This document shows positions 6,072 to 35,960 of a stretch of 64,000 bases of DNA, piece by piece (position 1 is the stretch's first letter; each line of letters opens with the position of its first letter). This DNA is from Macrostomum hystrix. Taxonomy: Eukaryota; Animalia; Platyhelminthes. Where the stretch lies: NCBI GenBank assembly GCA_950097015.1, contig CATNEN010000001.1, positions 7,688,001 to 7,752,000 of the forward strand. The letters are read 5' to 3'. The position numbers and the translations under genes were made by a program. The notes below the pieces were generated by a model that saw nothing but the letters and a program-made list of their open reading frames with translations, was not told where the DNA came from and did no database searches.

Positions 6072-6085
6072 GTTGCCATGGAAAC
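6072..6085. promoter_or_regulatory. RFX X-box motif overlapping the centlein ATG
   Basis: GTTGCCATGGAAAC matches the palindromic X-box GTTNCCATGGNAAC typical of ciliary genes. Confidence 0.6.
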
Positions 6086-14363: not shown

Positions 14364-17300
14364 TCACACTTGCTGCGACACCAAAAACAGCTGCTGTCCC
14401 AGGGCGACTAACTCGGTGTGAAACTCGAGAGCCTGCAACGGAAACAGGAGAGAATTAGCGCTAAAGAATAGAATGGATTGCTAGTCTAGCCTCCAATGGG
14501 TGAAGGAATAGAATGGATTGCTAGTCTAGCCTCCAATGGGTGAAGGAATAGAATGGATTGCTAGACTAGCCTCCAATGGGTGAAGGAACAGAATGGATTG
14601 CTAGTCTAGCCTCCAATGGATGAAGGAATAGAATGGATTGCTAGTCTAGCCTCCAATGGATGAAGGAACAGAATGGATTGCTAGTCTAGCCTCCAATGGG
14701 TGAAGGAATAGAATGGATTGCTAGTCTAGCCTCCAATGGATGAAGGAATAGAATGGATTGCTAGTCTAGCCTCCAATGGATGAAGGAATAGAATGGATTG
14801 CTAGTCTAGCCTCCAATGGGTGAAGGAATACAATGGATTGCTAGTCTAGCCTCCAATGGATGAAGGAACAGAATGGATTGCTAGTCTAGCCTCCAATGGA
14901 TGAAGGAATAGAATGGATTGCTAGTCTAGCCTCCAATGGATGAAGGAATACAATGGATTGCTAGTCTAGCCTCCAATGGGTGAAGGAATAGAATGGATTG
15001 CTAGTCTAGCCTCCAATGGATGAAGGAATAGAATGGATTGCTAGTCTAGCCTCCAATGGATGAAGGAATAGAATGGATTGCTAGTCTAGCCTCCAATGGG
15101 TGAAGGAATAGAATGGATTGCTAGTCTAGCCTCCAATGGATGAAGGAACAGAATGGATTGCTAGTCTAGCCTCCAATGGATGAAGGAACAGAATGGATTG
15201 CTAGTCTAGCCTCCAATGGATGAAGGAACAGAATGGATTGCTAGTCTAGCCTCCAACGGATGAAGGAATAGAATGGATTGCTAGTCTAGCCTCCAATGGA
15301 TGAAGGAATAGAATGGATTGCTAGTCTAGCCTCCAATGGATGAAGGAACAGAATGGATTGCTAGTCTAGCCTCCAACGGATGAAGGAATAGAATGGATTG
15401 CTAGTCTAGCCTCCAATGGATGAAGGAATAGAATGGATTGCTAGTCTAGCCTCCAATGGGTGAAGGAATAGAATGGATTGCTAGTCTAGCCTCCAACGGA
15501 TGAAGGAATAGAATGGATTGCTAGTCTAGCCTCCAATGGGTGAAGGAATAGAATGGATTGCTAGTCTAGCCTCCAATGGATGAAGGAACAGAATGGATTG
15601 CTAGTCTAGCCTCCAACGGATGAAGGAATAGAATGGATTGCTAGTCTAGCCTCCAATGGATGAAGGAATAGAATGGATTGCTAGTCTAGCCTCCAATGGA
15701 TGAAGGAATAGAATGGATTGCTAGTCTAGCCTCCAATGGATGAAGGAATAGAATGGATTGCTAGTCTAGCCTCCAATGGGTGAAGGAATAGAATGGATTG
15801 CTAGTCTAGCCTCCAACGGATGAAGGAATAGAATGGATTGCTAGTCTAGCCTCCAATGGGTGAAGGAATAGAATGGATTGCTAGTCTAGCCTCCAACGGA
15901 TGAAGGAATAGAATGGATTGCTAGTCTAGCCTCCAATGGGTGAAGGAATATAATGGATTGCTAGTCTAGCCTCCAACGGATGAAGGAATAGAATGGATGA
16001 ATTAGAAGGAGTCACGCAAATCTAACCTGATGATGGCCTTCTGGCACGCCGTCCAGCCCTCCGTTGAGCAGTCCGTAAATGCAGCAGGCGATGGCCCCAG
16101 TCGAGTCATTGTCACCGCCGTGAAGTACCGCAGATTCGCACAGCCTCAGCCAAGTTGAAGAGCCGTCAGATGCATCGTCAGGTTTGGCATCTTGGCTGCC
16201 GCTGAAGGCGTACAACAATCCATCGTAGGCGATCATCGGCGCGTCGTGCCCGGAGGCGCCGCCCCAGCCGCTGAAGGACACGGACTTGTAGAATGCGTCT
16301 CTCTCGGCCGGTCCGTAGGGTGATTTGAATTTCGCGGGTCCACGACCGTCAAGGAGGCCGCGAACCTTCAAATAGTCGGCCCAGGCGGTGGAGAAGTAAG
16401 GCCAGTGGCGCTTGTTCTCGGCAACGTCGCGGCCTTCAAATAGCAAGTTAGGTGTAACTTAAGAGTATAACTTGTAAACCCTATGAAGGGCTAAAATGCA
16501 ATGTCTGGGACGCACCGGTCTCCTCAATGTACTTCCAAGCGGCTGGCAGGGCGGTGTGAATCAGCTCGAAGCCCCAACGTTCCAACGGCTGGCCTTGGAG
16601 AGCCAGTGCGGCGAAGTAAGCGGAGGCCAAGCTGCCCAGGTAGCCAGTCGGATGGTTGTGCGTCATTCGGCCGGCTTCAACCGCAGCGGCTACTAGACGG
16701 GGCAGCTGGTGTGGCTGCCAGAACACCATGCCGATGCACATTGAGCGCATCGCGCCGCCGCAGCCACCTCCTCTGGGAATGGCGAAACATGTTACTTTAT
16801 TGTGCCACTCTGATTAAAAATTACCGATTTAAATTGCTACAAAAATACATAATATAAAACTAAAACACAAAAATTGCGGGAAAATGCTAGAACCACCATC
16901 CCGCGTCCCGACTTCCGACAGAGCCGAGAAACGGGGTCGTTTCACAAACCCTAATTTTCACAACGTCGCAAGACACACACTTTCATAAGCCCTAAATTCA
17001 TTAAGCCCTAAATTTCACAACGTCGAAAACAAAAGTTGCTTCCGACTTCACAAGCCCTAAATTTCACAAGCCCTAAATTTCACAAGCCATAATTTTCACA
17101 AGACCTAATTTTCATTTTCATGCACATTCTGTGCATGGCTTTTCGACGTTGTGAAAATTCGGTCTTGTGAAAATTATGGCTTGTCAAATTTAGGGCTTAT
17201 GAAATTTAGAGCTTATGAAAATCTGTGCATGCCTTTTAGGCGTTGTGAAATTTAGGGCTTGTGAAATTTAGGTGTTGTGAAATTTAGGGTTTGTGAAATT

Positions 17301-18232
17301 TAGGGCTTATGAAAGGATCTGGTTTAGACGTTGTGAAAATTAGGGCTTGTGAAAGCGACTCCGAGAAACGAGCTAAAAACGCAGCACGTGCTCGGCACGT
17401 GATAGTGACCCACAAGGCTAAAAATAGAATAGTAGACCTGCTGGCGATGACAAAGTTCAGTCACGCAGCAGACGCGTGCCACTTGATAGTGACCCACAGG
17501 GCTAAAAATAGAATAGTAGACCTGCTGGCGATGGTAAAGCCCAGTCACGCAGCACGTGCGTGATCTGAAGTGACACAAATCTTTAAAAACATTATCCTAA
17601 TCTTAATTATCTTAAAAGACAATTAATTCATGAGCTCACCGATCATTGAACGCGATTTTGTACCCACCAGTCTCTTCCAGCTCGCTACAGCTGAATCTGG
17701 TGCAGTCGCCTGTCAATATTTGTTTTATGTTTTAAAAAATTATATAGTAACCTCGGAATAGCTATTATTAAATTAGTAGTCAGATAAATTTTATACCAGG
17801 AGCACGTCCAGCCATCTGCAGCATGCAGGCGCTATACTCCTTGGCCAGACGCAGAAACAGCTGCTCAGGATCCGATTCAGCAGCCTTGGCAACCAGAGCT
17901 GGAATTATGTCAAAACTATTTAGAAGTAATTATTACTTATATTCTTTTAGGACGCTCGATTAGCAATATATTGTATTATTTCACCCATTGGAGTACAGCT
18001 CACCCTTAGCTGTAGCAATATGCATGACAGTGTCGTCGCTGACTCTAAACTTGGGCAAAGCGACTTTTAAACTCGGCAGGCCGCCCATACGCAGCACAGC
18101 CGCGTGCAGCTGCACGCCATCGTAGCAGAATTCCCATTCTCCGTTCTTGTAGCCCATGGCGTCGCCGCAGGCGCTGAGCAGCATGGCCGCTGAGAAGGCC
18201 TGAGCTGTACGCCGAGACCCAATACTCGCCAT
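14364..18232 (-). CDS. ADPRH: ADP-ribosylarginine hydrolase (ARH1); exons 18232 (acceptor 18268)-18004, 17898-17797, 17709-17640, 16772-16516, 16433-16027, 14432-14364
   Basis: Motifs [64 protein letters not shown] and HGGDNDSTG are characteristic of ARH1. Splice phases are consistent. Confidence 0.93.
14465..15998. repeat. 40-bp minisatellite (~38 copies) filling the last ADPRH intron
   Basis: Unit tgaaggaatagaatggattgctagtctagcctccaatgg(a/g). Confidence 0.97.
16934..17361. mobile_element. Foldback/MULE-like MITE
   Basis: Long inverted arms built from tttcacaagccctaaa units. Ends g(g/a)gtcg. 9-bp TSD cgagaaacg at 16925-16933 and 17362-17370. Confidence 0.8.
17385..17560. repeat. ~84-bp direct duplication
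   Basis: Two copies of gatagtgacccaca..gctaaaaatagaatagtagacctgctggcgatg..cagtcacgcagca. Confidence 0.8.
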
Positions 18233-18329
18233 CGGCTGGCGAGGCGAAGCGTCGGTCGTTGAGTCGGCCTTAAAGATGTCACGAGATTTTCTTGGTATTA
18301 AATTGACAGGCCACACTTTTTTTGCACCT

Positions 18330-18830
18330 GGCTCCTATTTGTTAACACCTGACTATTCTCTCTACATAACTAGCTCTAATCTGTCAAAACTTGTCTTTTA
18401 TCTCCTCATATCTGGCTCTTATCTGTCAACGCCCGTCTCATGTTTCTTAACACCTGACTCTTGTCACTCAACACCTGGCTTTTATCTATCAACGCCTTAC
18501 TATTATTTAGCACCACTAAATATTGTCTCTCACAACCTGGCATCTTTCTCTCAACACCTGGGCATTATCACTGAACACCTGGTTCTTTTATCTCTAATAC
18601 CTGGCTCTTATATCTCTAACACCTGGCTCTTATCACTCAACACCTGGCTCTTATCACTCAACACCTGGGTCTTCTCAGTCAACACCTGGGTCTTATCTAT
18701 AGACACCTGGCTCTTATCTATAGACACCTGGCTCTTATCTATAGACACCTCGCTCTTATCTATAGACACCTCGCTCTTATCTATAGACACCTCGCTCTTA
18801 TCTATAGACACCTGGCTCTTATCATATCTA
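18330..18830. repeat. 21-bp minisatellite between LSM11 and ADPRH
   Basis: Unit acacctggctcttatctatag. Homogeneous at 18600-18820 and degenerate toward 18330. Confidence 0.85.
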
Positions 18831-19215
18831 TGAACACGTGACTTTCTAATACTAAAAAAAATAAACGAAATTAGTTTTATTTTAATCGTAAAAAGTATAG
18901 TTTTGAGTTTTGAGATCGGATTTAAGATTAAAAATGCGTAGTTAGCAAACCAGAAAATTCATATAAATCAATTATAAAAAATGACACGGTGAAAAAAGCC
19001 AGCACCAATGCTTCAGTTGTGGCGGATGAAAAAAAGCCAAACAAAATCTCTCGCAATTGCACTCGGAAGGGACAAACGAATAGAGTAGTCTAGAGTAGCT
19101 CTAGACATGGAGCTCTGAATCTAGTAAATTCTGATGCGCGACTATTTTTCTCCAAGTAGTAAATCTGAATTTCCTATCCTTGTCTCTCCAGTTTCTAGAT
19201 TCAGAGCTCCATACT

Positions 19216-20235
19216 CTAGACATCGGACAGACGAACTAGCACAATACAAGATCCGCGTAGAAGAACCTGACCAAGGTGATTGTGCTGCACTTTTGTCCGA
19301 CAATTCGAACCGCAGTCCTTGCCGCCGCTAGAAGCTTCGGCAACATCAACTGGACGAGAAGGCTGCGCCGGCGGTTTGTTGGGTCGATTAGCAGTGCCTC
19401 TGCCAACAGTCTTTGCCTCCAATCTAGCGGCTGCTCGTCTAGCATTTCTACGCTGTTTTCGTAGGAGTTCAGCAACGCAGACAGCGTCTAGATTCACTAG
19501 GCGAGTCTCGTCGGCGTCTTCTAGAACGAGATTCACGTGCTTATCAAAGCTAACTATTCGGCCACGGATGATGGAGTCAATCTGGTTCATCGAGCGAGTG
19601 TAAACCGCCACGCGAGGCTGGACGACCGTCCCCGGATTCGAGCTATCGAAGCCGCAGCATCGCCACAGGAAATGCAGAGGACCGGATTCTGGCGAGCTGT
19701 AGCGATGCTCCAGCTGCCAGGCTAGATGATGCTTCAATCGGCGCTGCTGCTTTCGACGCTGTCGCTCTAGCTGCTTCCGTAGCTGCTCTTCGCAATGCGC
19801 CGCTAGTGCAGCGTCATTAGCAACCGGGTTACTAGGCGCCGAATTCGCAGTAACAGAAGTAGACGGTAAAGTTTTATCGGTGGATGATTTCAAAACCAAA
19901 GTAGGATACTTTTCAGCGGCTTCGGCTGATGATGAAAAAGCGTCTTTAGTAACCGCGTTGCTAAGCAACAAACTCCCAGCAACAGTTGGTGCCACAGATG
20001 ATAAATTCAACGTCAACGGATGATCAATTTTAGTTTTCAACACCAAAGTCGGATACTTATTAGCGGCTTCTGCAACTAATAAAGCGTCCTTAGCAACCAC
20101 GTTACTAGGCGACGAAGTTTTAGTAGTGGATGTAGCCACAGACACTGGCGTAGATGACAAATTATGATCAGTGTTAGTTTTTAACACTAAAGTCGGATAT
20201 TTATTAGCAGCTTCCGCGGCCGCTTCCGCTGATTC
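19216..20235 (-). CDS. LSM11: U7 snRNP Sm-like protein Lsm11; single coding exon starting at an AG acceptor, no genomic in-frame ATG
   Basis: GPLHFL, split Sm1 (VAVYTRSMNQIDSIIRGRIVSFDKHVNLVLEDADE) and Sm2 (HLGQVLLRGSCIVLV) with a long insert, which is the Lsm11 architecture. The frame extends to tttcag|GAA at 20235. Confidence 0.85.
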   Translation of the reverse strand, partial: ESAEAAAEAANKYPTLVLKTNTDHNLSSTPVSVATSTTKTSSPSNVVAKDALLVAEAANKYPTLVLKTKIDHPLTLNLSSVAPTVAGSLLLSNAVTKDAFSSSAEAAEKYPTLVLKSSTDKTLPSTSVTANSAPSNPVANDAALAAHCEEQLRKQLERQRRKQQRRLKHHLAWQLEHRYSSPESGPLHFLWRCCGFDSSNPGTVVQPRVAVYTRSMNQIDSIIRGRIVSFDKHVNLVLEDADETRLVNLDAVCVAELLRKQRRNARRAAARLEAKTVGRGTANRPNKPPAQPSRPVDVAEASSGGKDCGSNCRTKVQHNHLGQVLLRGSCIVLVRLSDV

Positions 20236-21557
20236 CTGAAAGTAACGAATGAGCTCAAAGTGTTAAGTGTACTTTGATTGATTTTGCCTACTATAGAATA
20301 ATATTACGGGATTCGAACCTACGAATTTCAAGACACTATGCTGCAATAGCTGTAATAACCTTAGATAATAAATAAAGTAGAATGTCTCATGCTTGCTACT
20401 AATAGTGCTACATTTCTGAAGGCCACATTTTACGACGAAAAAAAAATAAACTGGAAACAAAATAATTAAAGACTAAGATAGTAAAACACCAAAAAATCTG
20501 CAAAGAAAAGAACTGATACTATTAACTCCAGAATTTATTCGCGCTAAAAAGTTAAAGATAATGTTTGACACAGTTCAATTGGCAATTTCGCTAAAAAGCG
20601 GTTTAAAAAGTACTTTATCAAAGCTATCCTTCTGTTAAAGAATTTTTACAATCGTTTTAAACAATTTGAAATAACAAAATTAAACTGGAATAAATTTATT
20701 TTCACAATCATAAAAGCAAAGGCAAGTCTAAGAAAATTGATTACTAGCAAAATAAATAACATACCCTCTAGTAACATTAAATAATGAAAAAGTAAAGTAA
20801 AAAATTGTCAATAAAGACTATAAAAAATGAGCAAAAGTGAAAATAATAACAGGCTTACCTGGAAAGCAGTAAAAATTGGTTTCACACAGTTTTTTCAATA
20901 CATATAGGCATCGTCTAGTTACTGAAAATTGCCATATTTTCTATACATATCGGCAAATATTTAAGCTACAGGTCCCAAACTAATGACCAAATGTAGATTT
21001 TATTATGGTGAAAGGAATTAATTATGAAGAAAAAACATGTTAACTAGCGTATTTAGAAAGCTGGTTAGGCAAAAACACGGCACATCAATAAAAATATATC
21101 AGTAAAAGTAGAGTAAAAGAGTTACTCCAACCAAAAATTTCGATAGCAAGGCACTTTTTCTGCTGCGATAAAAAAACTAGCGAGTTTTTATATATCACTA
21201 CTAACGTTCGTTAAAAAAAGTAGTATTATAAGCAAGTTGCTAAGAAAAAAATACAAAAAACTCAAAGTAAAAAAAAATACGGAATACAAAAGCTATAATT
21301 AGTACATGTCCTCGAATTCCTATCGAATAATTAAGCTAATGATACAGCTTGAAGTTTTGAATTGTCAAAGTAAAAGCTACGACTAATTGTACAAATAAAC
21401 TATAAACGAATAAACTCTAATTTTATAAATTTACCCCACTGCTAAAAAAGTAAAAAAGGACTTAAACATTCCCATTTTAAAGGACTGTTTAATAGAGTCT
21501 AGATTAAAGCAGTGAAATATTTACAATTTACAAAGACACCCTTACCGTTAACAATAA

Positions 21558-22192
21558 AACTTTCACGATTCACAATGAAATCTATCACGATTCACAATGA
21601 AATCTGTCACGATTCACAATGAAATCTTTCACGATTCACAATGAAATCTGTCACGATTCACAATGAAATCTGTCACGATTCACAATGAAATCTTTCACGA
21701 TTCACAATGAAATCTTTCACGATTCACAATGAAATCTTTCACGATTCACAAATAAATCTATCACGATTCACAAATAAATCTATCACGGTTCACAATGAAA
21801 TCTTTCACCATTCACAATGAAATCTTTCACGATTCACAATGAAATCTGTCACGATTCACAATGAAATCTTTCACGATTCACAATAAAATCTTTCACGATT
21901 CACAATGAAATCTATCACGATTCACAATGAAATCTATCACGATTCACAATGAAATCTATCACGATTCACAATGAAATCTATCACGATTCACAATGAAATC
22001 TTTCACGATTCACAATAAAATCTTTCACGATTCACAATGAAATCTTTCACGATTCACAAATAAATCTTTCACGATTCACAATGAAATCTTTCACGATTCA
22101 CAAATAAATCTTTCACGATTCACAATGAAATCTTTCACGATTCACAAATAAATCTTTCACGATTCACAATGAAATCTTTCCCGATTCACAAT
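21558..22192. repeat. 21-bp minisatellite (~30 copies)
   Basis: Unit tcacgattcacaatgaaatct(t/a/g). Confidence 0.95.
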
Positions 22193-22274
22193 TGCTACAG
22201 TCTATATAAGTGTTGCTCCTTGAACAGCTCAAACTAACGATCCCAATGCAAAAAAACAGGCGTGAGCGATTGAA

Positions 22275-25200
22275 TCACAGCCTTATAGCAGATCCGAATG
22301 CTTGCGCAATGGCCAGGCCGGCTCGCAGGCGATCGTGAGGATGGCACAGGTACAGCTCGGCCAGGTGGTCAGTGAGGTGAAACACGGACATATCCATGAA
22401 GCTGGCAAGCTGTTCAGCTAGTCTGGAGTCGACACCGGCGACAACGGCGACGCCGTCAAGCGAGTGCTGAGCTAGAACTGCCTCCACAGCTGATCTAATT
22501 TTGGCTTTATTACCTGACTGCGAGGCGGACAGCAGGTTGCCGAAATCGATGTCGCGAATCAGCGCCACCTGGTCAGACACGGTCGAGAGCAGGGTGACAA
22601 CGCTGTCGTCGCCTGGCGGCTTCCGACCGTCGGCCTGCGATCGACGCTGGTGAACAAATAGAAATCCGACACGAAGCCGCGGCGGCGCGGGTGTCGACGA
22701 TGTCGGAGACGACGGCGGCGTGAGCAGGTGGTCACGCATGCCAGGCGTGACGGCGGAGGCGGCCAACGATGGCAGGCGAGCCTGGCTGGCCAGGATGGCT
22801 AGGAATCTGCCCGCCGGTTGGTCGCGCTGCAGCAGGGTGGCGCACACCGGCTTGCTGGCGATGGAACGAAGCACTTCGCCGAGGCGCGCAATGGGGTACT
22901 GGCCAACGAAGAACAATGCGCCGTGGTTTAGCAGCAGACCGCTCACCTGGACGACAAAAAGAAAACAAATAGCTGCATTTGGATAAATCAACATTTACAG
23001 CTTTCCTTGAGTAGATAGAAAATATTAAAACTAGATAGGGAATTCAAGCCTTTTACCAAGACTAGATAGGAAATTCCAGAATTCATCCAGACTAGTTAGG
23101 GAATTCCTGGATTCCGCAGACTAGATAGGGAATTCTAATATTCACCTAGACTAGATAGGGAATTCCTATATTCACCTAGACTAGATAGGGAATTCCTATA
23201 TTCACCTAGACTAGATAGGGAATTCCTATATTCACCTAGACTAGATAGGGAATTCCTATATTCACCTAGACTAGATAGGGAATTCCTATATTCACCTAGA
23301 CTAGATAGGGAATTCCTATATTCACCTAGACTAGATAGGGAATTCCTATATTCACCTAGACTAGATAGGGAATTCTAATATTCACCTAGACTAGATAGGG
23401 AATTCTAATATTCACCTAGACTAGATAGGGAATTCCTATATTCACCTAGACTAGATAGGGAATTCTAATATTCACCTAGACTAGATAGGGAATTCCTATA
23501 TTCACCTAGACTAGATAGGGAATTCCTATATTCACCTAGACTAGATAGGGAATTCCTATATTCACCTAGACTAGATAGGGAATTCCTATATTCACCTAGA
23601 CTAGATAGGGAATTCTAATATTCACCTAGACTAGATAGGGAATTCCTATATTCACCTAGACTAGATAGGGAATTCCTATATTCACCTAGACTAGATAGGG
23701 AATTCTAATATTCACCTAGACTAGATAGGGAATTCTAATATTCACCTAGACTAGATAGGGAATTCTAATATTCACCTAGACTAGATAGGGAATTCCTATA
23801 TTCACCTAGACTAGATAGGGAATTCCTATATTCACCTAGACTAGATAGGGAATTCCTATATTCACCTAGACTAGATAGGGAATTCTAATATTCACCTAGA
23901 CTAGATAGGGAATTCTAATATTCACCTAGACTAGATAGGGAATTCCTATATTCACCTAGACTAGATAGGGAATTCCTATATTCACCTAGACTAGATAGGG
24001 AATTCTAATATTCACCTAGACTAGATAGGGAATTCTAATATTCACCTAGACTAGATAGGGAATTATAATATTCACCTAGACTAGATAGGGAATTCCTATA
24101 TTCACCTAGACTAGATAGGGAGTTCCTATGTTCACCTAGACTAGATAGGGAATTCTAATATTCACCTAGACTAGATAGGGAATTCTAATATTCACCTAGA
24201 CTAGATAGGGAATTCTAATATTCACCTAGACTAGATAGGGAATTCTAATATTCACCTAGACTAGATAGGGAATTCTAATATTCACCTAGACTAGATAGGG
24301 AATTCCTATATTCACCTAGACTAGATAGGGAGTTCCTATGTTCACCTAGACTAGATAGGGAATTCTAATATTCACCTACACTAGATAGGGAATTCTAATA
24401 TTCACCTAGACTAGATAGGGAATTCTAATATTCACCTAGACTAGATAGGGAATTCTAATATTCACCTAGACTAGATAGGGAATTCTAATATTCACCTAGA
24501 CTAGATAGGGAATTCTAATATTCACCTAGACTAGATAGGGAATTCTAATATTCACCTAGACTAGATAGGGAATTCTAATATTCTCCTAGACTAGATAGGG
24601 AATTCCTATATTCACATAGACTAGATAGGGAATTCCTATGTTCACCTAGACTAGATAGGGAATTCTAGGATTCACTCAGACTACACAGGATATCCCTGGA
24701 TTCTCCCAAACTAGATGGGGAATTCCCGGATTCAATCAGACTAGATACCCTAAATTACCCGAACTTAAACAACAGAAATTCCTGAATCTTACCTGTGTAA
24801 GATCCTTATCAACTAGAGCAATATCGATGGATCCTTCGGCCCTAAGAGCCAACACAACCGGGTGATCCTTCTGGCACACGTCGCCATCTTCGTCGCGATC
24901 TTCGAATGCCACCAGAGCTCCGTTGTAATAGAATGCGGCTGCTGGCATCAAGAAATCCTTGGCGCGACCCTCCAGCAACAGGGCTTTGACGTCAGCATCG
25001 TAAACTACCTCCTTGATCTTTGAAGCCTTTGCCTTCTGGTCTAGTAGCAGTGTGCGGGCCTGTACAAAATGAAATTAACAGATAAGAACTCCACGAATCT
25101 GCAGATAAGAACTCCACGAATCTGTAGATAATAACTCCACGAATCTGCAGATAAGAACTCCACAAATCTACAGATAAGAACTCCACGAATCTGCAGACAA

Positions 25201-26787
25201 GAACTCCACGAATCTACAGATAAGAACTCCACGAATCTGCAGATAAGAACTCCACGAATCTGCAGATAAGAACTCACGAATCTACAGATAAGAACTCCAC
25301 GAATCTGTAGATAAGAACTCACGAATCTGCAGATAAGAACTCCACGAATCTACAGATAAGAACTCCACGAATCTGTAGATAAGAACTCCACGAATCTACA
25401 GATAAGAACTCCACGAATCTACAGATAAGAACTCCACGAATCTGTAGATAAGAACTCACGAATCTGCAGATAAGAACTCCACGAATCTGCAGATAAGAAC
25501 TCCACGAATCTACAGATAAGAACTCCACGAATCTGCAGATAAGAACTCCACAATTCTACAGATAAGAACTCACGAATCTACAGATAAGAACTCCACAATT
25601 CTACAGATAAGAACTCACGAATCTACAGATAAGAACTCCACGAATCTGCAGATAAGAACTCACGAATCTACAGATAAGAACTCACGAATCTACAGATAAG
25701 AACTCCACGAATCTACAGATAAGAACTCACGAATCTACAGATAAGAACTCCTCAATTCTACAGATAAGAACTCACGAATCTACAGATAAGAACTCACGAA
25801 TCTACAGATAAGAACTCACGAATCTACAGATAAGAACTCACGAATCTACAGATAAGAACTCACGAATCTACAGATAAGAACTCACGAATCTACAGATAAG
25901 AACTCACGAATCTACAGATAAGAACTCACGAATCTACAGATAAGAACTCACGAATCTACAGATAAGAACTCACGAATCTACAGATAAGAACTCCACAATT
26001 CTACAGATAAGAACTCACGAATCTACAGATAAGAACTCACGAATCTACAGATAAGAACTCCACGAATCTACAGATAAGAACTCACGAATCTACAGATAAG
26101 AACTCCTCAATTCTACAGATAAGAACTCACGAATCTACAGATAAGAACTCACGAATCTACAGATAAGAACTCACGAATCTACAGATAAGAACTCCTCAAT
26201 TCTACAGATAAGAACTCCTCAATTCTACAGATAAGAACTCCACGAATCTACAGATAAGAACTCCACGAATCTGTAGATAAGAACTCACGAATCTACAGAT
26301 AAGAACTACACAACAACAGACAAGGGAATTTAAATCTATAGACAAATAAATAAGAGTGCAATCAAGAGAATATTCTTTCTAGAGATAAAATATCTAAAAC
26401 AAATAATTCTGAACTCACCTGAAATGCTTCAAGAACATCGACCGGGGCCAACTGGCCAGAAAGCATCTTCTGCTTCAGCACATCGTACTCTTCAAGGCAG
26501 ATGGTTTTACAATTGTTTATTGGAGTACCAATACTGCTCAATTTATTCCAGAGCCGCGCTTTCTTCTCTAATAGTTCGCGTTTAGTTTTACGCTTTGATC
26601 GATAAGTAGAAATCAGACGCCAGGCAAGCTTCCCTAGCAACAGAATGGACACAGTTAGTAGGCTAGTTAGGAGCAGCTTAACACCCCAAGCCGATCCGGC
26701 ATCGTAGATGCGGCTAGCAACTAGCCAGGCGAATGGGAGAGCTACGGCTCCCGATAGCAGCAGTGCGGACAGAGAAGGAGCCTGCAT
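22275..26787 (-). CDS. FAAH-like (amidase-signature family) membrane protein, predicted catalytically dead; exons 26787-26419, 25059-24793, 22946-22275
   Basis: N-terminal hydrophobic anchors. LKQKMLSGQLAPVDVLEAFQ, YNGALVAFED and QKDHPVVLALRAEG align by eye with the FAAH N-terminal half. Phase-0 introns give an intact ORF of ~435 aa. Confidence 0.68.
23030..24740. repeat. 30-bp minisatellite (>50 copies) in FAAH-like intron 2
   Basis: Unit aattc(ct/ta)atattcacctagactagataggg. Confidence 0.97.
25079..26310. repeat. 22/23-bp minisatellite in FAAH-like intron 1
   Basis: Unit agataagaactc(c)acgaatctac. Confidence 0.96.
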
Positions 26788-27214
26788 TGGATTTCGCGAC
26801 GCAGAGTTGTCTGTCTGGGCTAATGATCTTTCTTTTGGCTAGCTTATAACTCCTAACTCTACTGGATATATAAGCTATTGTGAGAAAGATCTATAGGGAT
26901 AGACCCGCGGTGAGGGGGTGACAGAGAGAGCCAGTAAGATCACCAACTGTACTCAAACTTCTGCTAACTATAGTTGAGTTGTGAGTGCTATATTGTCATA
27001 GATTCATATATAGTAAAGAAGCCCGATACAATAGACAAGATATATTTAGACAGAACGAAACTGACTAGTAGCACAATTCTTAACAATACGATTGCTCTAA
27101 AGAACTGTAGAACTGTGTGAGGTACCTGAAACTACTCACGACGCTTAAAACTGAGCTGGCTGCTTAAACTCCTAATCTGAAACTTCTCAAAACTATTAAA
27201 GAACTGCTTAAACT

Positions 27215-27688
27215 AATTTAACTAGATTTAACTGCTCAAACATGATTTAACTACTCAAACACGGTTTAACTACTCAAACATGATTTAACTACTCAAAAAT
27301 GATTAAAACTACTCAAATATGATTAAAACTACTCAAACATGATTAAAACTACTCAAAAATGATTAAAACTACTCAAATATGATTAAAACTACTCAAACAT
27401 GATTAAAACTACTCAAACATTATTTAACTACTCAAACATGATTTAACTACTCAAACATGATTAAAACTACTCAAACATGATTTAACTACTCAAACATGAT
27501 TTAACTACTCAAACATGATTAAAACTACTCAAAAATGATTAAAACTACTCAAAATGATTTAACTACTCAAACATGATTAAAACTACTCAAAATGATTTAA
27601 CTACTCAAACATGATTAAAACTACTCAAACATGATTTAACTACTCAAACATGATTAAAACTACTCAAACATGTTTTAACTGCTCAACC
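27215..27688. repeat. 19/20-bp minisatellite between GBA2 and the FAAH-like gene
   Basis: Unit aactactcaaacatgatt(t/aa). Confidence 0.93.
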
Positions 27689-28704
27689 CTTATTATACAG
27701 CTTAACCATAATAACCATAAGCAAGACCCACCTAAATCTCTATCCCAGCAGATGCTTATAAAACGATAGCACTACTATTTAAGATGATAAAATTGAAATT
27801 AAAAGAACAAAAATCGAAAATATGTTCGTAATTTGTATTTTTGCTAACAACTTTATTTTTGTTCGGATACATCGAGACTTATAAAAATGTATTAATACGT
27901 TACAAAATATAAACAATGTCATACTCAATTGAGTACTTTGTTCTTAATAAGTTTCCAGGTGCCTCAGATCTCCATTTTTATGCGTCCTATATGTATCGAA
28001 AAAAGCATTTTAAATATCTTGAATTAAGCTCAGTCGTGTACAAAGACAAGCATTTTAACCAATCAGCTGTGCAGAACTCTGTTTAATTCGCTACATTCTC
28101 TATTAAAAACAAGACACTAGTATCCGCGATTCCAAAAAACAACAATAAAGACAAATATTAAGTTAACTCAATACTTTAGTTTGTTGATTGATTCAACGCA
28201 ATAAATATCGCAATATAAGTCAATCAGAAAATAACGTGTACATATGACAATGATGAAAGCAATTTAGATAATAAAAATAAATACAGACTAAAAAAACACT
28301 CAACCTAGAAAAAGTATTACAACAAAGTAGGATCATATCTTCTAGTAGAAGAAATTGTCAAATTAATAGTACACAAAAGAAGAAAGTGAAAAATCTGTTA
28401 ATCAGCAAAAAATCTGCAAACGTGTTTCTAGACCATTTACTATCTCCATCGTATGTAATAAAGTAAAAACCATTAATTGACTCTAAACAGCAGGAAAAAA
28501 TATGAACTGTAGAAACAAAAATATGGATTGCTCAAAAAGGCTGCCAGATGAAATCTATAAAAAAAATTGACAAAAGAAGTACAAAACATAAAAACACCAA
28601 AAAGCATGAAATGTTAAACAAAAATAGCTTACTGAACACTTTAAATTAGTTTTCGCAAAAAATCTCGTGCTAAACTTTTCGCGAACCTTTTCACTGAATC
28701 TCTT

Positions 28705-29045
28705 TTCAGAATCCTTTTCGGAAATCGCTTGTGAGAATCCCATTTGACAATCCCTTGCGGGAATCCCTTTGCAGGAATCCTTTCGGGGATCTCTTGCGGG
28801 AATCCCTTTGGGGAATCCCTTTCGGGAATCCCTTTCGGGAATCCCTTTCGGGAATCCCTTTCGGGAATCCCTGATGGGAATCCCTTTCGGGAATCATTTC
28901 GGGAATCCATTTGGGAATCCATTGTGGAAATCCCTTTCAGGAATCCCTTTTTGGAAAACCCCTTCAGGAATCCCATTAAGAAATCCCTTTCGGAGAATCC
29001 CTTTCGGAAATCCCATTAAGGGATTCCTTGGAAGAATCCTTCTGA
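28705..29045. repeat. 13-bp gggaatccctttc array downstream of the GBA2 stop
   Basis: Direct inspection. The same unit recurs at 31850-32150. Confidence 0.88.
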
Positions 29046-29181
29046 GAAAACAGTTATATTTTCAACAAAAGTTTTTTTAGTTCAATATTCTAGCGAATTA
29101 GAAATACTTTGTTCACAAAATTTTAAACATGGAATTATAATAGATTATCAGATCAATTAGATGAGTGTAATCAGATTCATT

Positions 29182-32100
29182 TCACTTTGAAGCCGCAGCC
29201 TTCCTAGCCGCCCGCAGCAGAGCCCAGATGCACAATGGTCGCATGTAGCCCAGGGAACGAAAGCGTCCGTCGGAGAAAATCGCCTCCGGTGTCTGATAGG
29301 CCAGGCCGAAATTGTCCCAGACTGTGCGATAAGTGCCGCCAGCGCAGGTCCAAGCCTCATTGGTCAGGCCGGCTTCCAGCATCAGCGCTGCGACACCGTA
29401 GGAGACGCCAATCCAGGATTCTTCGGCTTGAATGGATCGCAGTTCCGGTCCAGGCGGCTTAATTAGCCGACCGCCATTAAATAGGCCCATTTGGCCGTTA
29501 AAACTCTGCAAATTTTGCGTTAAACAATCTTGTGAGATAGGATCAAAATATCAAATATTAAAACCTGATACGAGGAGTCTTCGTTTTGGGAATTCCCTGC
29601 GCATAATATAAAACAGGGTTTTCTCGATAAGGTATAATACGGCGTGGGTTTTCCCAATCAGGAATCCCCAGCGTGTGAACTGGAATAGAGTTTTCCAAAT
29701 TGGAAACCCTAAGTCCATAATGTAACATAGGGAATCCCCATAGTATAATCTGACATGGGGTTTTCCCGATTGGGAATGCCGTGTATATGTATAGCATGGG
29801 TTTTCCTTATTGGAAATCAGGCACGTAGCTTTTCCCACTAGGAATCCCCAGTTAGTATTAAGCACGGGTTTTCCCAGTTGGGAATCTCCATTGTATAATC
29901 TGGCATTGGGTTTTTCCTGATTGGGATTCCCCAGCGTTAAATTTGAAATGGTGTTTTTCTAATTATAAATCCTACTCTATTATGTAACATAGGGTATTTC
30001 CAATAGGGAATCCCATGTTTAAATTAGAACAAGGTTTTCCTAATTTGGAATCCCAATGTATTTAATCTGGAATGGGTTTTTTTTAATTGGGAATACCTGT
30101 GCATATTGTGACATTCTCTTTTGGGAATCCCTGACGCAAAATCTAGACGGGGTTTTCCCGATTGGGAATCCGCAGTGTTGAATGAGGAATGGGGTTTTCC
30201 CAATTAGGAACCCCTATTGACATATGAAAGTATGTCATATTTTCGATCTGAAATCTGCTTTCGTTTAACTACCTGGGCTAAACAGTTGCATTTAAAAACT
30301 GTTTCCATAGTAACGCGAACCGCTTCGTCGGGTAGCAACGGTTCCTCGTCTGGGGTGGAAGTTTTCTCAGCGTTCACAGGTTGAGACGCTTTCAGCATCC
30401 AATAGCCGAACAGCTGATCGGACATGACCGTGTCAGAGAATCGGCCGCCAGTGTCGAATCGAAATTGTTCCCCAGTCCATAGTTTGGCCAGGTAGCTGGC
30501 TCTGGCGCGATCGGCCAATCGGCGCCATTCAGCAGCGTCCGAGTCCGATCGGTCGGTCGTAGCGGCGGACATTTCGGCGGTGGCTCGCAGAGCGGCTAGC
30601 CACAGGCCGGCGCAGTAGGCTGACACTCCGGTCATGGGCCAGGCGTCGTAGGTTTGATCGGCGTAGCCTGCAGTGTTGTTAATTTTAGCTGCGTTTAAAA
30701 ATAGCCTAGGGAAAGGATTTCCCGGGAATTCCGATAAAGGAAAATGTTCTTTCGGGAAGACCCTATAATGGATTTTCACGGGACTTTCGACACATAATCA
30801 GGCAAGGGATTGATTCCCTGGGAAATCCAATCTTGGACACCCCAAAATAGATTTTCACGGGATTTTCGACAGAGCATCCGAAAAAGGATTCACTCGGAAA
30901 TCAAACCTAGGACACCCAGAACGGACTTTCTTGGGATTTCCGACACAGAAAGGAATTCCCTGGGAAATCCAATCTTGAACATCCTAGAATGGATATTCAC
31001 AGGATTTCCGAAATAGAATCCGGAATGGAATTCCGCGGGAAATCCAAACTTGGATACCACAGAAGTTATTTTCGTGAATTTTGACACAGAATCCAAATAG
31101 GGATTCCCTCGAAAATCCAACCTCGGACACCCCATAATGGATTTTTTGGGTTTTCCGACACATAATCAGGCAAGGGATTTCCTAGGAAATCCAATATTGG
31201 AGACTCCATAAACTTTTCTCGTGGATTTCGACCTAAAACCATTAAAAAATTATGAAGCCAGCGACTAAGTGTTTACGCACCGGTATTCTCCACTAGTCCA
31301 TCGTTGTCAGTGTCCCATTGTAGACAGTGTCGCATTAAGCCTTCAACGGCGGGCATCATGTCGGCCAGGTATTCGGCATTGTACTCCGGCAATAATTTCC
31401 AATCTCGATAGACGCAGAGTACAAACTTAGGATTTAAATCGCGCCAATCGTCGCTGCACATCATTATGTAACTGTTGACGCGAATAAATGGCTCGTCCTC
31501 TGTATGATGAAACAGAAAGGGTTTAAAAAACTATTTACTACTGAAAGTAGTCCGAAATAAGAAAGCAACTTTTTATCAAACCTGGATCGCCCAGATCGTG
31601 AGGCAGAGCCATGCGCTGATTGCGTGCAGTCCTGGTGTTAGTAACCACCCAATAGACTTTGGTCTGATCTTCATCAAGGGCAGCTTTGGCTGGAAGTAAT
31701 GACAAAAAATTGTTTAGAGCGAGAAACAGGTGCGCTGTGATTTGGATTTCATTAGAGTGGTAAGTACAGTTGGAATTAAGAGGTGTAGTAATCTATGACC
31801 AGGAGTTCCTCGGCGCCAGGTCAAGGAAATTTCGAAAGTTTATTTCGGGAATCTATTTTGGAAATTCTCTTTCAGGGGTTTCTTTGAGAATCCTTAGGGT
31901 ATTCCTTTCGGGAATTCCTATGGGGGAATCCATTTCGGGAAATGCTTTCGGGAATCCCTTTCGGGAATCAATTTCGGGAATCTCTTTTGGGAATCCCTTC
32001 CGGGAATCCCTTCCGGGAATCCCTTCCAGGAATCCCTTCCAGGAATCCCTTCCGGGAATCCCCTTCGGGATTCCCTTTCACGAATACCTTTCGGGAATCC

Positions 32101-35100
32101 ATTTCGGGGATCCCGTACACGAATCTTATTACGAACTTTCCGGAAATTTTCGGTCATTATTTTATTGGAAATTTCTCTTAGGTAGCGCCTTTGGAATCCA
32201 ATGGTTGAAATCATAAGTACTCTTCGTACCACAAATGTGGTTGTGACGACACAGCCAACTAAAACTTACCAAAATCGTACTGAATAGCCATCTGTAATTT
32301 TGGGAAATTTTCCAAAAATGCCCACGAGGCGTAAGTGTGCACATCGTACGTTGAGTACATGCGGTACTCGTGACCCTCTAGGTAGGCGAATAAGCCCATG
32401 TCGGCCTTCACCGGACAGGCCCAACGGCCTGGTTCAGAGTGAATAGCGTTGACGTCGCCTCCGTCTAGCCAGACGCTGCCCGAATCGCTCAGATAGTAGC
32501 TCTCGTTGAAGACGGCTGACTTGAACCAGTCGGGCAATCCGGCATCGTTTAAAACGCCACTGTGCCACTTCCGGATGGCGTCTAGCCAATCAGGAAGGCG
32601 ACGAAACGCGTGACGAATCAGAGCGATGGTGGCCTCTGATTGGCTGCCGTTGAACCAGCGAACGTGGCGTCTGAAATGGTTTGCAAAATGGCGAGTAAGA
32701 GTCGTTGCTTTGATAGCGAGATGTGTGAAAACTCAGGCTAGTAAGAGTCGCAGTTTCGATAGCGGGAGGTGTGAAAATTCAGGCTAGTAAGAGTCGCAGT
32801 TTCGATAGCGTGGTGTGAAAACTCAGGCTAGTAAGAGTCGCAGTTTCGATAGCGGGAGGTGTGAAAATTCAGGCTAGTAAGAGTCGCAGTTTCGATAGCG
32901 TGGTGTGAAAAATCAGGCTAGTAAGAGTCGCAGTTTCGATAGCGGGAGGTGTGAAAATTCAGGCTAGTAAGAGTCGCAGTTTCGATAGCGGGAGGTGTGA
33001 AAATTCTGTCTAGTAAGAGTCGCAGTTTCGATAGCGGGAGGTGTGAAAATTCAGGCTAGTAAGAGTCGCAGTTTCGATAGCGTGGTGTGAAAACTCAGGC
33101 TAGTAAGAGTCACAGTTTCGATAGCGGGAGGTGTGAAAATTCAGGCTAGTAAGAGTCGCAGTTTCGATAGCGGGAGGTGTGAAAATTCTGTCTAGTAAGA
33201 GTCGCAGTTTCGATAGCGGGAGGTGTGAAAATTCAGGCTAGTAAGAGTCGCAGTTTCGATAGCGTGGTGTGAAAACTCAGGCTAGTAAGAGTCACAGTTT
33301 CGATAGCGGGAGGTGTGAAAATTCAGGCTAGTAAGAGTCGCAGTTTCGATAGCGTGGTGTGAAAACTCAGGCTAGTAAGAGTCACAGTTTCGATAGCGGG
33401 AGGTGTGAAAGTTCAGGCTAGTAAGAGTCGCAGTTTCGATAGCGGGAGGTGTGAAAATTCAGGCTAGTAAGAGTCGCAGTTTCGATAGCGTGGTGTGAAA
33501 AATCTGACTACACGAGTCGCTTCTTAAATGAGCGCTCACCTCGTGTAGGACTGCTGGCCGGCATGAAATTTCACGCTAGGCATGTGCCAAGCAAGACAGA
33601 ATTTGGCAGATTCCACGGACTGACGAGCTGGTACTCTGCTAGTGACACAGACAGCGGTGGCAATCTCTTCTCCGGTTTTAGTCGCCAGATTGTCATTTTC
33701 AGCAGCAAATTTACTATCTGAATCAGACTGTGGCCAACTGATTAGACGACCCGTGTTTAACAGTGAGTACCATAGTCGATTAGCCATAGTTGGATCCTTA
33801 GCTGGATCGAAACGCGGCCAAATTGTCACGGAGGACTGTAAATTGTTGTCGGTACAAAACACTAATTAATAAAGGCTTCATAAGTAATTGAATAAGTAAA
33901 TCTTCGTTATGGGGCACGGATTGCTAGTCCACATGCCAATATTGGGCAGCAAAATTATATTTCTGTAATCATGACTTCGGCTCGCATTTTTTGCTGCTTT
34001 TGTAAGTATCGAATCATTTTTTAGATTAAAATGAAAAAAATTAGGCCTTATGAACGGCTGATGAACTGTTTTCTTCATGGCATGACACACCACTATGAAC
34101 AGAAAAGTAATTGCACTTAAACTTTTCGTTAAACTCACATTATCAGCGGGCATTGCTGCCACACCATAGGTGCAAGGCAAACCGGCCATCTGCTGATGAA
34201 TTAGCGCGCCAATCGGGCCAGTTTGTTGACCAGTCTGGTTATCGTTAAACGGCTCAACGGTGACCCCGCCTGCTCTATCGGCCGAGGTGCCGTCGCCATT
34301 TTTAAAGCAGAATGTCAGGCTAACTTCCAGATCTTCGCCTAAAGAATTCTCTACGCGCCATTCGAATAAAGCGACGGGTAGGCAGGAGTCCTGTGCAGGG
34401 AAAATTGATTTGGAATTCGCAGTTAGTAAATAGTAAATAGGCACACGTAAAATAGCAACTCGACAATATGTAAGGGATAAATACGCAGCCAGCTAGAGGC
34501 ATTTCTGCTGACTCCTGAATATACACGCACACATACTGTACGCAGGCAGGTACACTCAAAAGTTATGTACATCTCTATTTCAATTGACTTTCTCATCGTC
34601 AAAAAAGGCACACTAATAGTCGTAAGCAACACAAACACGCAAGTATTCTCTACTCGGCTGCGCCCCAGTGTGAAATTAGGCGGGAGTTGCGAAAACTCAG
34701 GCTATTAAGATACGCTCTTTCGATAGCAGGAGGTGTGAAAATTCAGGCTAGTAAGAGTCGCAGTTTCGATAACGGGAGGTGTGAAAATTCAGGCTAGTAA
34801 GAGTCGCAGTTTCGATAGCGGGAGGTGTGAAAATTCAGGCTAGTAAGAGTCGCAGTTTCGATAACGGGAGGTGTGAAAACTCAGGCTAGTAAGAGTCGCA
34901 GTTTCGATATCGGGAGGTGTGAAAATTCAGGCTAGTAAGAGTCGCAGTTTGGATAACGGGAGGTGTGAAAACTCAGGCTAGTAAGAGTCGCAGTTTCGAT
35001 ATCGGGAGGTGTGAAAACTCAGGCTAGTACGAGTCGCAGTTTCGATAGCGGGAGGTGTGAAAATTCAGGCTAGTAAGAGTCGCAGTTTCAATAGCGGGAG

Positions 35101-35960
35101 GTGTGAAAATTCTGGCTAGTGAGAGTCTTTGTTTCGATAGCGGGAGGTGTGAAAACTCAGGCTAGTAGTTTTGATAGCCGGTTATTTTATATTATATTTT
35201 CAAATGACTTTGACGATTAGAAAATTAAAATTAGCAGGACAATCTCTATTCGATAGAGGACCAGACGGTGTCCAATAAAAATTACCGTATAATCGTGTGG
35301 CACAACCGGACTAGTCTGTCGACAGAGCAGCCTAACGCCACGATAGGGTAGCTTATAGACAGTCCAGGACTGCGGATAGAGGCCATGATAGGCACAGGAC
35401 TCTTCGGGCATGCCGCTGGCCCAGCCAGCCATCGCTGGCCGGCGAAAATTTTTAAACACTAGGGCTCGTTGAAACACAGTGCCGCCTCGTTTGCGCAGCG
35501 TCACAATGAAACAATCGGCCTCAGGCTGTTCATACTCGTACAATCCAGGCACCAACTGGAAGCGACGAAATTCGCCGCGAAAACCTCGACCAATACTGCC
35601 GCAGCCGAGTCCGCCAAGTGGCACACCGTACACTGGCTCGTACGGCACGTGTACTAAGCCGTCGATGAACGGTCGACGCTTCTCTATGAAACGTTTTCTC
35701 AAATAGAATTTAAACAGATAGCGCAAAGACGGCAGAAGCAGTTCCAATAGTTGATGCCAACGCGGTCGATGAAACGGTTGGCAACTAGCGAATTCGCGGC
35801 TAAATGTGGCCAGCCAGCCGTGAGACGGCGGGCGCCAATCGTCCGGACAGTTGAGCTCGGCGAAAAGAGCCTCCGCGGCGGCTTGATCTTTGCTCCAAGC
35901 CTGCTGCTGCTGCTGCGCAGCACCATTCTGTTCGTGTGTCATTCCGTTCAAGTTGTCCAC
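29182..35960 (-). CDS. GBA2: Non-lysosomal glucosylceramidase (GH116); exons 35960 (ATG 35942)-35286, 34390-34139, 33835-33540, 32670-32270, 31689-31582, 31499-31281, 30667-30273, 29505-29182
   Basis: GVPLGGLGCGSIGRGFRGEF, YLEGHEYRMYSTYDVH (nucleophile region), PHDLGDP, WRDLNPKF, DQTYDAW (acid/base) and YQTPEA...FRSLGYMRPL. Splice phases are consistent. Confidence 0.96.
29580..31210. repeat. Degenerate GGGAATCCC-containing repeats in GBA2 introns 7 (29580-30210) and 6 (30710-31210)
   Basis: Recurrent ttttcccxattgggaatccc and gggaaatccaa units. The span also includes exon 7. Confidence 0.65.
31850..32150. repeat. 13-bp gggaatcccttt/c array in GBA2 intron 4
   Basis: Same unit as 28705-29045. 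Confidence 0.85.
32693..33520. repeat. 44/46-bp minisatellite in GBA2 intron 3
   Basis: Unit aggctagtaagagtcgcagtttcgatagcgggaggtgtgaaaattc. Confidence 0.95.
34440..34600 (-). mobile_element. SINE family B fragment
   Basis: gcagccagc..gaggcatttctgctgactcctga and actttctcatcgtca match the family B 3' half. Confidence 0.55.
34680..35168. repeat. 46-bp minisatellite in GBA2 intron 1
   Basis: Same unit as 32693-33520. Confidence 0.95.

What the first reader, a model, noticed from the sequence alone, without database searches (positions are those of the whole stretch)
14364..35960. Candidate SL trans-spliced operon GBA2 > FAAH-like > LSM11 > ADPRH, with start codons supplied by the spliced leader
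Seen: four unrelated genes lie head-to-tail on the minus strand with ~1-2.4 kb gaps, part of which is minisatellite. AATAAA signals lie between them. Three open at an AG placed exactly in frame: GBA2 caacag|GTG GAC (35960), LSM11 tttcag|GAA TCA (20235) and ADPRH ctttaag|GCC GAC (18268). Established: flatworm SL exons end in AUG, which can act as initiator, and Macrostomum has SL-resolved operons. Inference: this is a polycistronic unit whose protein N-termini are completed in trans. The acceptors were picked by eye, so frame agreement alone is not proof.
Basis: partly seen in the sequence, partly recalled or inferred. Interest (0 to 1): 0.8.

Follow-up and report, generated by a model that had tools for sequence, protein, structure and literature searches.

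The report
Flatworm operon with leader-supplied start codons
In a Macrostomum flatworm, RNA contigs show the same short leader RNA spliced onto three of four neighbouring genes with its AUG in frame, so the cluster is likely one of this group's ordinary trans-spliced operons, and one gene (LSM11) likely cannot make its full protein without the leader's start codon.

Summary
RNA contigs carry the published Macrostomum spliced leader (SL) joined in frame at three sites: ADPRH 18268 (2 of 4 runs), LSM11 20235 (letters printed in 1 of 4 runs; 2 more end there with 22 unprinted letters) and GBA2 (3 of 4 runs).

Three 5'-partial M. lignano orthologues begin right after ATG-CAG, which predicts an in-frame SL site at 26781. 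Its 'FAAH-like' label is unverified.

Only LSM11 clearly needs the SL AUG: its first genomic Met is residue 216, inside the Sm fold. GBA2 and ADPRH each have their own Met 11-12 codons downstream.

The LSM11>ADPRH gap fits the published Macrostomum operon rule (about 90-130 nt after repeat subtraction). The GBA2 link is unresolved, and no contig bridges any gap.

SL operons (15% of M. lignano genes) and SL-AUG initiation in flatworms are both published, so this is a new member of a known kind. The scan had not noted this cluster; it has related SL notes on other DNA.

The parts
35976..35977 (-). GBA2 SL acceptor AG (ttacag|CAT); first exonic base 35975
   Evidence: 21-letter SL loose end in X4, X5, X6; fits the [T/C]TNCAG motif
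35961..35962 (-).
   Evidence: Contigs read through it to 35976 in 3 of 3 runs holding the exon
29182..35975 (-). GBA2 (GH116 non-lysosomal glucosylceramidase), 8 exons, about 895 aa; second in-frame ATG 33 nt after the SL site
   Evidence: Exon model, Pfam PF12215 and PF04685, ATG scan
27852..27857 (-). AATAAA, possible distal poly(A) signal of GBA2
   Evidence: Sequence; use not tested
27198..27686 (.). 20-nt minisatellite (with a short flanking repeat) in the GBA2 to second-gene gap; a degenerate 13-nt array lies at 28709-29014
26782..26787 (-). ATG CAG: genomic ATG followed by the predicted SL acceptor of the second gene (first exonic base 26781)
22275..26781 (-). Second gene, 3 exons, about 434 aa, hydrophobic N-terminal helices; amidase/FAAH resemblance unverified
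   Evidence: Exon model; M. lignano orthologue 72% identical over exon 3; family searches negative or weak
20501..21540 (-). Expressed non-coding stretch, likely the long 3' UTR of the second gene beyond a 22-nt minisatellite (21551-22192), with AATAAA at 21004, 20700, 20539
   Evidence: Contigs 20720-21277 (depth 28), 20501-20697 (5.7), 20914-21407 (10.7); link to the CDS inferred
20236..20237 (-). LSM11 SL acceptor AG (tttcag|GAA)
   Evidence: 21-letter SL loose end in X3; X4 and X5 contigs end at the same base with 22 unaligned letters
19216..20235 (-). LSM11, single exon, 339 codons after the acceptor; no genomic in-frame ATG before codon 216
18876..18881 (-). AATAAA, likely LSM11 poly(A) signal
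   Evidence: contigs end at 18897, 18907 and 18916
18269..18860 (-). LSM11 to ADPRH intercistronic region, 591 nt of which 499 is a degenerate 21-nt minisatellite
   Evidence: low-depth contigs at 18255-18472, 18524-18720 and 18700-18750
18269..18270 (-). ADPRH SL acceptor AG (tttaag|GCC)
   Evidence: 19-letter SL loose end in X4 and X5
14364..18268 (-). ADPRH/ARH1, 6 exons, about 390 aa; second in-frame ATG 36 nt after the SL site
   Evidence: introns 17710-17796 and 17899-18003 spliced out in contigs

Best explanation
The Macrostomum spliced leader is joined in frame to the GBA2, LSM11 and ADPRH mRNAs and is predicted to join the second gene too, and at least the last three genes are likely transcribed as one precursor that poly(A) cleavage and trans-splicing cut into single mRNAs. 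The leader ends in AUG, which becomes the first AUG of each message. For LSM11 it is likely the obligatory initiator, since no genomic ATG precedes the Sm fold. For GBA2 and ADPRH it likely initiates too, but a genomic Met 11-12 codons on could serve. GBA2 is the likely first cistron at about even odds, with an inferred promoter between it and the divergent gene above 37300. Minisatellite growth has stretched the gaps. Shown: SL junctions, frames, Met positions, distances. Inferred: shared precursor, promoter position, actual initiation, the second gene's SL site.
For: SL loose ends match the published 35-nt SL (PMC8629364) in 21 of 21 letters (GBA2, LSM11) and 19 of 19 (ADPRH), compared by eye; the leader's last G falls on the genomic AG. 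A 12-letter piece of the leader is absent from the window. The contigs are RNA: introns with CT..AC ends are skipped. LSM11's first 215 codons are stop-free (1 of 20000 shuffles) and Met-free (P about 0.005 at the local Met frequency of 41 in 1663). Met216 lies after the GPL motif and first strand that align with other LSM11s. Repeat-adjusted gaps from the likely 3' ends are 92-129 nt (LSM11>ADPRH) and 265-484 nt (second gene>LSM11), against a published mode near 100 nt and a 1-kb cut-off. Low-depth contigs lie inside the LSM11-ADPRH gap. Three M. lignano records of the second gene are 5'-partial right after MQ, in an annotation whose transcripts were cut at trimmed SL peaks (PMC5730564).
Against: No contig bridges any intergenic gap by the tool's 31-letter rule (the 18255-18472 piece has 14 exon letters). 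Contigs give no strand, start or level. About 60% of SL-spliced M. lignano genes are not in operons, so an SL alone does not prove polycistronic origin. GBA2 contigs end only about 53-99 nt after the stop (inferred from record lengths); if that is the true end, the adjusted gap is 1506-1552 nt and fails the 1-kb rule. The 20501-21540 contigs are not joined to the second gene's CDS. The genomic ATG before the second gene's acceptor is kept in both species, which would suit an own promoter. ADPRH's tttaag does not fit the enriched acceptor motif. Most support is from one study (X4-X6); a second study (X3) confirms LSM11 only.
Confidence: 0.72

Rival explanations
1. GBA2 is a separate SL-spliced gene. 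A promoter in the 27.7-28.7 kb or 26.8-27.2 kb stretch starts a three-gene operon (second gene > LSM11 > ADPRH), and unspliced messages of the second gene could use the genomic ATG at 26787. This is compatible with the best explanation for the last three genes.
For: GBA2 contigs end about 53-99 nt after the stop, giving an adjusted gap above 1.5 kb. ATG-CAG is conserved in M. lignano (MQPPS against MQAPS).
Against: If the AATAAA at 27857 is used, the adjusted gap is 564 nt. Contigs also break near repeats, and an array begins at 29014. Chimeric gene models with gaps of several kb are reported in parasitic flatworms (PMC12582326).
Confidence: 0.4
2. All four genes are monocistronic, each with its own promoter and an outron removed by SL splicing. 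Their order is gene density, not co-transcription.
For: Most SL-spliced genes in M. lignano are outside operons. The functions are unrelated. No bridging contig was seen.
Against: Only about 90-130 nt of non-repeat DNA separates the LSM11 3' end from the ADPRH acceptor, and 265-484 nt precede LSM11, which leaves little room for promoters and matches the published operon mode.
Confidence: 0.15
3. The leader AUG is in frame because an out-of-frame AUG would be harmful, but GBA2 and ADPRH are mostly started at their own downstream Met by leaky scanning. Only LSM11 (and the second gene) depend on the leader AUG.
For: Downstream in-frame ATGs lie 33 and 36 nt after the sites, and conserved sequence begins later (GBA2 at about residue 45; ARH1 at residue 22-24). 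The same caveat was noted for Echinococcus (PMC3510090). GBA2 has C, not G, at +4.
Against: The leader AUG is the first AUG on each message, and ADPRH has G at +4. The first-AUG scanning rule is recalled knowledge.
Confidence: 0.3
4. The leader junctions are assembly or template-switch artefacts, and the genes have cis-spliced upstream exons.
For: Only assembled contigs were laid, not raw reads, and they drop minor forms. GTRAG motifs lie within 600 nt upstream of ADPRH (18533, 18500) and of the second gene (27139).
Against: The junctions fall exactly on AG at three loci, repeat across runs (and for LSM11 across two studies), and match a published SL letter for letter. No joint to an upstream exon was listed.
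Confidence: 0.03

Closest known systems
[quoted passage not shown] 2017, PMC5730564)
   Same: Same leader sequence, AG acceptors (two of three seen fit [T/C]TNCAG), same-strand conserved housekeeping genes, repeat-inflated gaps that shrink to about 100 nt; a four-gene example is already figured in the paper.
   Different: Likely another Macrostomum species (closest M. lignano records are 72% and 87% identical). This cluster was not found named in the searches run. The main text read does not address frame or start-codon use.
Flatworm SL 3'-terminal AUG as initiator (Cheng et al. 2006, seen only as cited; Echinococcus survey PMC3510090)
   Same: Leader AUG in frame with the ORF; some genes need it, others have a nearby Met. 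In E. granulosus 143 of 187 SL clusters were full length using it.
   Different: The cited evidence is from parasitic flatworms. For Macrostomum I found only a figure-legend remark that the SL likely contains the start ATG (PMC10468722). Here the dependent gene is LSM11, with a 215-codon Met-free N-terminus.
Operons of parasitic flatworms (PMC5832876, PMC12582326) and C. elegans SL2-type operons (as summarised in PMC12582326)
   Same: Poly(A) site followed by a short intercistronic stretch and an SL acceptor.
   Different: One leader type on first and downstream genes here; raw gaps of 0.9-2.4 kb exceed the 200-300 nt cut-offs used for parasites.

Membership tests
Macrostomum SL trans-spliced genes | SL sequence joined to the mRNA 5' end at an AG (GBA2, LSM11, ADPRH) | tested here: met
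   Loose ends of 19-21 letters identical to the published SL
Macrostomum SL trans-spliced genes | SL joined to the second ('FAAH-like') gene | tested here: inconclusive
Macrostomum SL trans-spliced genes | Leader is not encoded in cis upstream | tested here: met
   12-letter leader piece absent from both strands of the window; no Rfam match in the window; whole genome not held
Macrostomum SL trans-spliced genes | Trimethylguanosine cap | not testable with these tools
   Needs cap immunoprecipitation
Macrostomum operon (PMC8629364 rule) | Adjacent same-strand genes with an SL-spliced downstream gene (LSM11, ADPRH) | tested here: met
Macrostomum operon (PMC8629364 rule) | Repeat-adjusted gap under 1 kb, LSM11 > ADPRH | tested here: met
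   92-129 nt from the likely 3' end, 448 nt even from the stop codon
Macrostomum operon (PMC8629364 rule) | Repeat-adjusted gap under 1 kb, second gene > LSM11 | tested here: inconclusive
   265-484 nt if the 20501-21540 contigs are its 3' UTR (inferred); about 1398 nt from the stop
Macrostomum operon (PMC8629364 rule) | Repeat-adjusted gap under 1 kb, GBA2 > second gene | tested here: inconclusive
   564 nt with the AATAAA at 27857; 1506-1552 nt from the contig ends
True polycistronic unit | One promoter and a precursor crossing the gaps | tested here: inconclusive
   Low-depth contigs inside the LSM11-ADPRH gap, none bridging; no strand or start data
SL-AUG-initiated ORFs | Leader AUG in frame with the main ORF | tested here: met
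   3 of 3 sites seen
SL-AUG-initiated ORFs | No genomic ATG before the conserved domain (LSM11) | tested here: met
   First in-frame Met is residue 216
SL-AUG-initiated ORFs | No genomic ATG before the conserved domain (GBA2, ADPRH) | tested here: not met
   In-frame ATG 33 and 36 nt downstream, ahead of homology; this removes the need for the leader AUG, not the possibility of its use
SL-AUG-initiated ORFs | Initiation shown in vivo | not testable with these tools
   Needs ribosome profiling or N-terminal proteomics
LSM11 (U7 snRNP) | Long N-terminal extension and Sm1/Sm2 split by a large loop; LSm11 as best match | tested here: met
   Pfam LSM in two stretches; profile's top four PDB hits are LSm11; features as in PMC7026596
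FAAH / amidase signature | Amidase domain PF01425 or amidase fold | tested here: inconclusive
   No Pfam or PDB sequence hit; Atlas model rows 1 and 3 are amidase clusters at TM 0.41 and 0.37, under the bar; own models too poor (pLDDT 46 and 38)

The most novel reading that the evidence does not exclude
All four genes form one operon in which every protein starts on the leader AUG. The histone-mRNA processing factor LSM11 is then strictly dependent on trans-splicing for its translation. The second gene keeps a conserved genomic ATG two codons before its acceptor, so it can be made from both spliced and unspliced messages: a built-in bypass that the other cistrons lack. In-frame leader starts may be the rule in Macrostomum, which would leave many annotated proteins truncated or flagged partial.
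Probability: 0.25. Interest if true: 0.45.

Novelty: new member of a known kind. Interest (0 to 1): 0.3.

Why it matters
It is a clean, RNA-supported case of a known mechanism. In practice it corrects gene models: N-termini must be built with the leader ATG, and LSM11 would otherwise be annotated as a 124-aa fragment. It also offers a good test locus, because Macrostomum is a flatworm group with transgenesis and LSM11 has no alternative start, so leader-AUG initiation and co-transcription can be tested directly in a free-living flatworm. It does not change what is known about operons or trans-splicing.

Tried and rejected
No whole genome was held, so the SL RNA gene and genome-wide frame statistics could not be checked.

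The run search listed 7 runs, none on record as RNA. 5 of the 7 were laid (X1, X3, X4, X5, X6); X2 and X7 were not. No contig lay at 35977-38079 or 20237-20500 among the pieces listed; this is not used as evidence.

A near-length homologue search with LSM11 found 0 of 7998 scored candidates. The full-library search found 2 distant proteins, so no Macrostomum LSM11 N-terminus was available for comparison. The only M. lignano GBA2 record (P0001) has a fused, mis-predicted N-terminus and says nothing on the start.

FAAH label: Pfam, PDB sequence and profile searches, two AlphaFold models and two fold searches gave nothing usable.

Supplements: none readable for PMC8629364 or PMC10468722; these may list this cluster or the species' SL. 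The three M. lignano gene ids were not found in the supplements of PMC5816591 or PMC7806878. Cheng et al. 2006 was not held.

A first exon model had off-by-one borders and was replaced. The GBA2 exon 7 donor remains 30273 or 30270.
Full report
Setting. The window is eukaryotic, intron-rich and full of minisatellites: 8513 of 21612 bases in the cluster. No genome was held. The closest named proteins are from Macrostomum lignano: a GBA2 fragment at 87% identity and an orthologue of the second gene at 72%. The window is therefore likely from a Macrostomum species other than M. lignano; an old paralogous copy in M. lignano is not excluded. The SL is reported to be highly conserved among three Macrostomum species (PMC10468722, passages).

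Gene models. Four minus-strand genes have open spliced frames: GBA2 (8 exons, stop at 29182), a three-exon gene with hydrophobic N-terminal helices (stop at 22275), single-exon LSM11 (20235-19216) and ADPRH (6 exons, stop at 14364). GBA2 and ADPRH are supported by Pfam and PDB. LSM11 has a split LSM domain, and a six-sequence profile returns four LSm11 chains first, E 3.7e-17 against 3.7e-9 for the next family. The FAAH label is not supported by sequence; the only hint is two amidase clusters among ten structure rows, both under the naming bar.

Trans-splicing, direct test. Seven runs were listed and five were laid. On 17570-21540 (four runs), contigs skip two ADPRH introns, so they are RNA. 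At 18269, X4 and X5 carry a 19-letter loose end; X1 and X3 had no contig at that end. At 20236, X3 carries a 21-letter loose end; X4 and X5 contigs stop at the same base with 22 unaligned letters that the cut table did not print; X1 had none. On 35170-38200 (four runs), X4, X5 and X6 carry the same 21-letter loose end at 35976; nothing from X3 was laid. Read in reverse complement, these ends equal positions 14-34 and 16-34 of the 35-nt SL in PMC8629364 (parts 1-3 of 4 read; compared by eye). The leader's final G falls on the G of the genomic AG, so each message reads leader-ATG then the exon. The first exonic bases are 18268, 20235 and 35975.

The second gene. Two UniRef records of the M. lignano orthologue begin MQPPS, while three NCBI records flagged 'partial' begin PPS. 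That annotation cut transcripts at trimmed SL peaks (PMC5730564, passages), so I infer an SL site at the CAG of MQ. The window has the same arrangement, ATG CAG|GCT at 26787-26781. If this holds, the genomic ATG is discarded and replaced by the leader's, and the next in-frame Met is 105 codons on, past the hydrophobic helices.

Who needs the leader AUG. LSM11 does. Its first in-frame genomic Met is residue 216, after two out-of-frame ATGs and after the GPL motif and first strand shared with other LSM11s. The 215 upstream codons are stop-free, which happened in 1 of 20000 shuffles. Human Lsm11 uses its N-terminal extension to bind FLASH (PMC7026596, passages). GBA2 and ADPRH do not need it: in-frame ATGs lie 33 and 36 nt downstream, ahead of detectable homology. 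Initiation itself was not measured.

Is it one transcript? By the published rule (downstream gene SL-spliced, repeat-adjusted gap under 1 kb), LSM11>ADPRH qualifies. Contigs end at 18897-18916, an AATAAA sits at 18881, and the adjusted gap is 92-129 nt. Contigs of depth 2.9-3.7, and one 51-nt repeat piece at 16, lie in this gap against 20-57 on the flanking mRNAs, but none bridges it by the 31-letter rule and strand is unknown. The second gene>LSM11 link qualifies (265-484 nt) if the contigs at 20501-21540 are its 3' UTR, which I infer but cannot join across the 22-nt array. GBA2>second gene is open: contig lengths place the GBA2 ends about 53-99 nt after the stop, giving 1506-1552 nt, whereas the AATAAA at 27857 would give 564 nt. 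GBA2 faces a divergent plus-strand gene; a mis-predicted M. lignano record fuses the antisense of that neighbour to GBA2, which suggests the head-to-head layout is conserved. About 60% of SL-spliced M. lignano genes are outside operons, so SL evidence alone is not enough.

Comparison with the literature. In M. lignano 30% of genes are SL-spliced and 15% are in operons of two to nine genes. Use of the leader AUG as initiator is established in parasitic flatworms (Cheng et al. 2006, not held; seen as cited in PMC12582326, PMC5832876 and PMC3510090, passages, and PMC9851317, part 1 of 4). In Echinococcus 143 of 187 SL clusters were full length with it, and nearby Mets were common. For Macrostomum a figure legend already notes that the SL likely contains the start ATG. 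I did not find this cluster in print: 'Lsm11' with 'trans-splic' and 'flatworm' gave 0 papers, and 'spliced leader' with 'AUG', 'Macrostomum' and 'N-terminal' gave only the Echinococcus paper. Unreadable supplements and genome-browser tracks may hold it.

Verdict. The feature is real and mostly correctly read, with one acceptor corrected and one added by inference. It is an ordinary member of the known Macrostomum SL/operon system. Its value is as a test locus, LSM11 above all.

Noticed in passing
window 19107-19212: 21-nt inverted repeat (95%, 64-nt spacer) right after the LSM11 stop. Other transcripts share pieces of it, and an X1 contig has 19027-19129 replaced by three letters. Possibly a small mobile element in the 3' UTR.
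   Followed up: partly
window 19900-20205 (-): LSM11's N-terminus has three copies of a KYPTL motif at residues 12, 60 and 109; function unknown, possibly repeated partner-binding sites.
   Followed up: no
window 32690-33501 and 34680-35167: The same 46-nt minisatellite fills two different GBA2 introns.
   Followed up: no
window 37311-39972 (+): Divergent neighbour of GBA2 with a 638-codon low-complexity exon and no Pfam hit; its antisense is fused to GBA2 in an M. lignano record.
   Followed up: partly
window 45184-46779 (+): Single 532-codon hydrophobic ORF, transporter-like by eye, no Pfam hit at E 0.01.
   Followed up: partly
window 47739-50666 (-): Glycine-rich gene with an ALK/LTK glycine-rich domain hit; a broken transposase-like stretch at 48700-49782 lies between its exons (Tc1/mariner-like by recalled features).
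   Followed up: partly
window 55861-60272 (-): MGAT2 N-acetylglucosaminyltransferase II gene with long minisatellites in an intron.
   Followed up: partly
window 2200-12900 (+): A proline-rich gene (about 2200-4200) and a long coiled-coil gene (about 6000-12900; centlein-like by recall) converge on the ADPRH 3' end; only weak coiled-coil Pfam hits.
   Followed up: no
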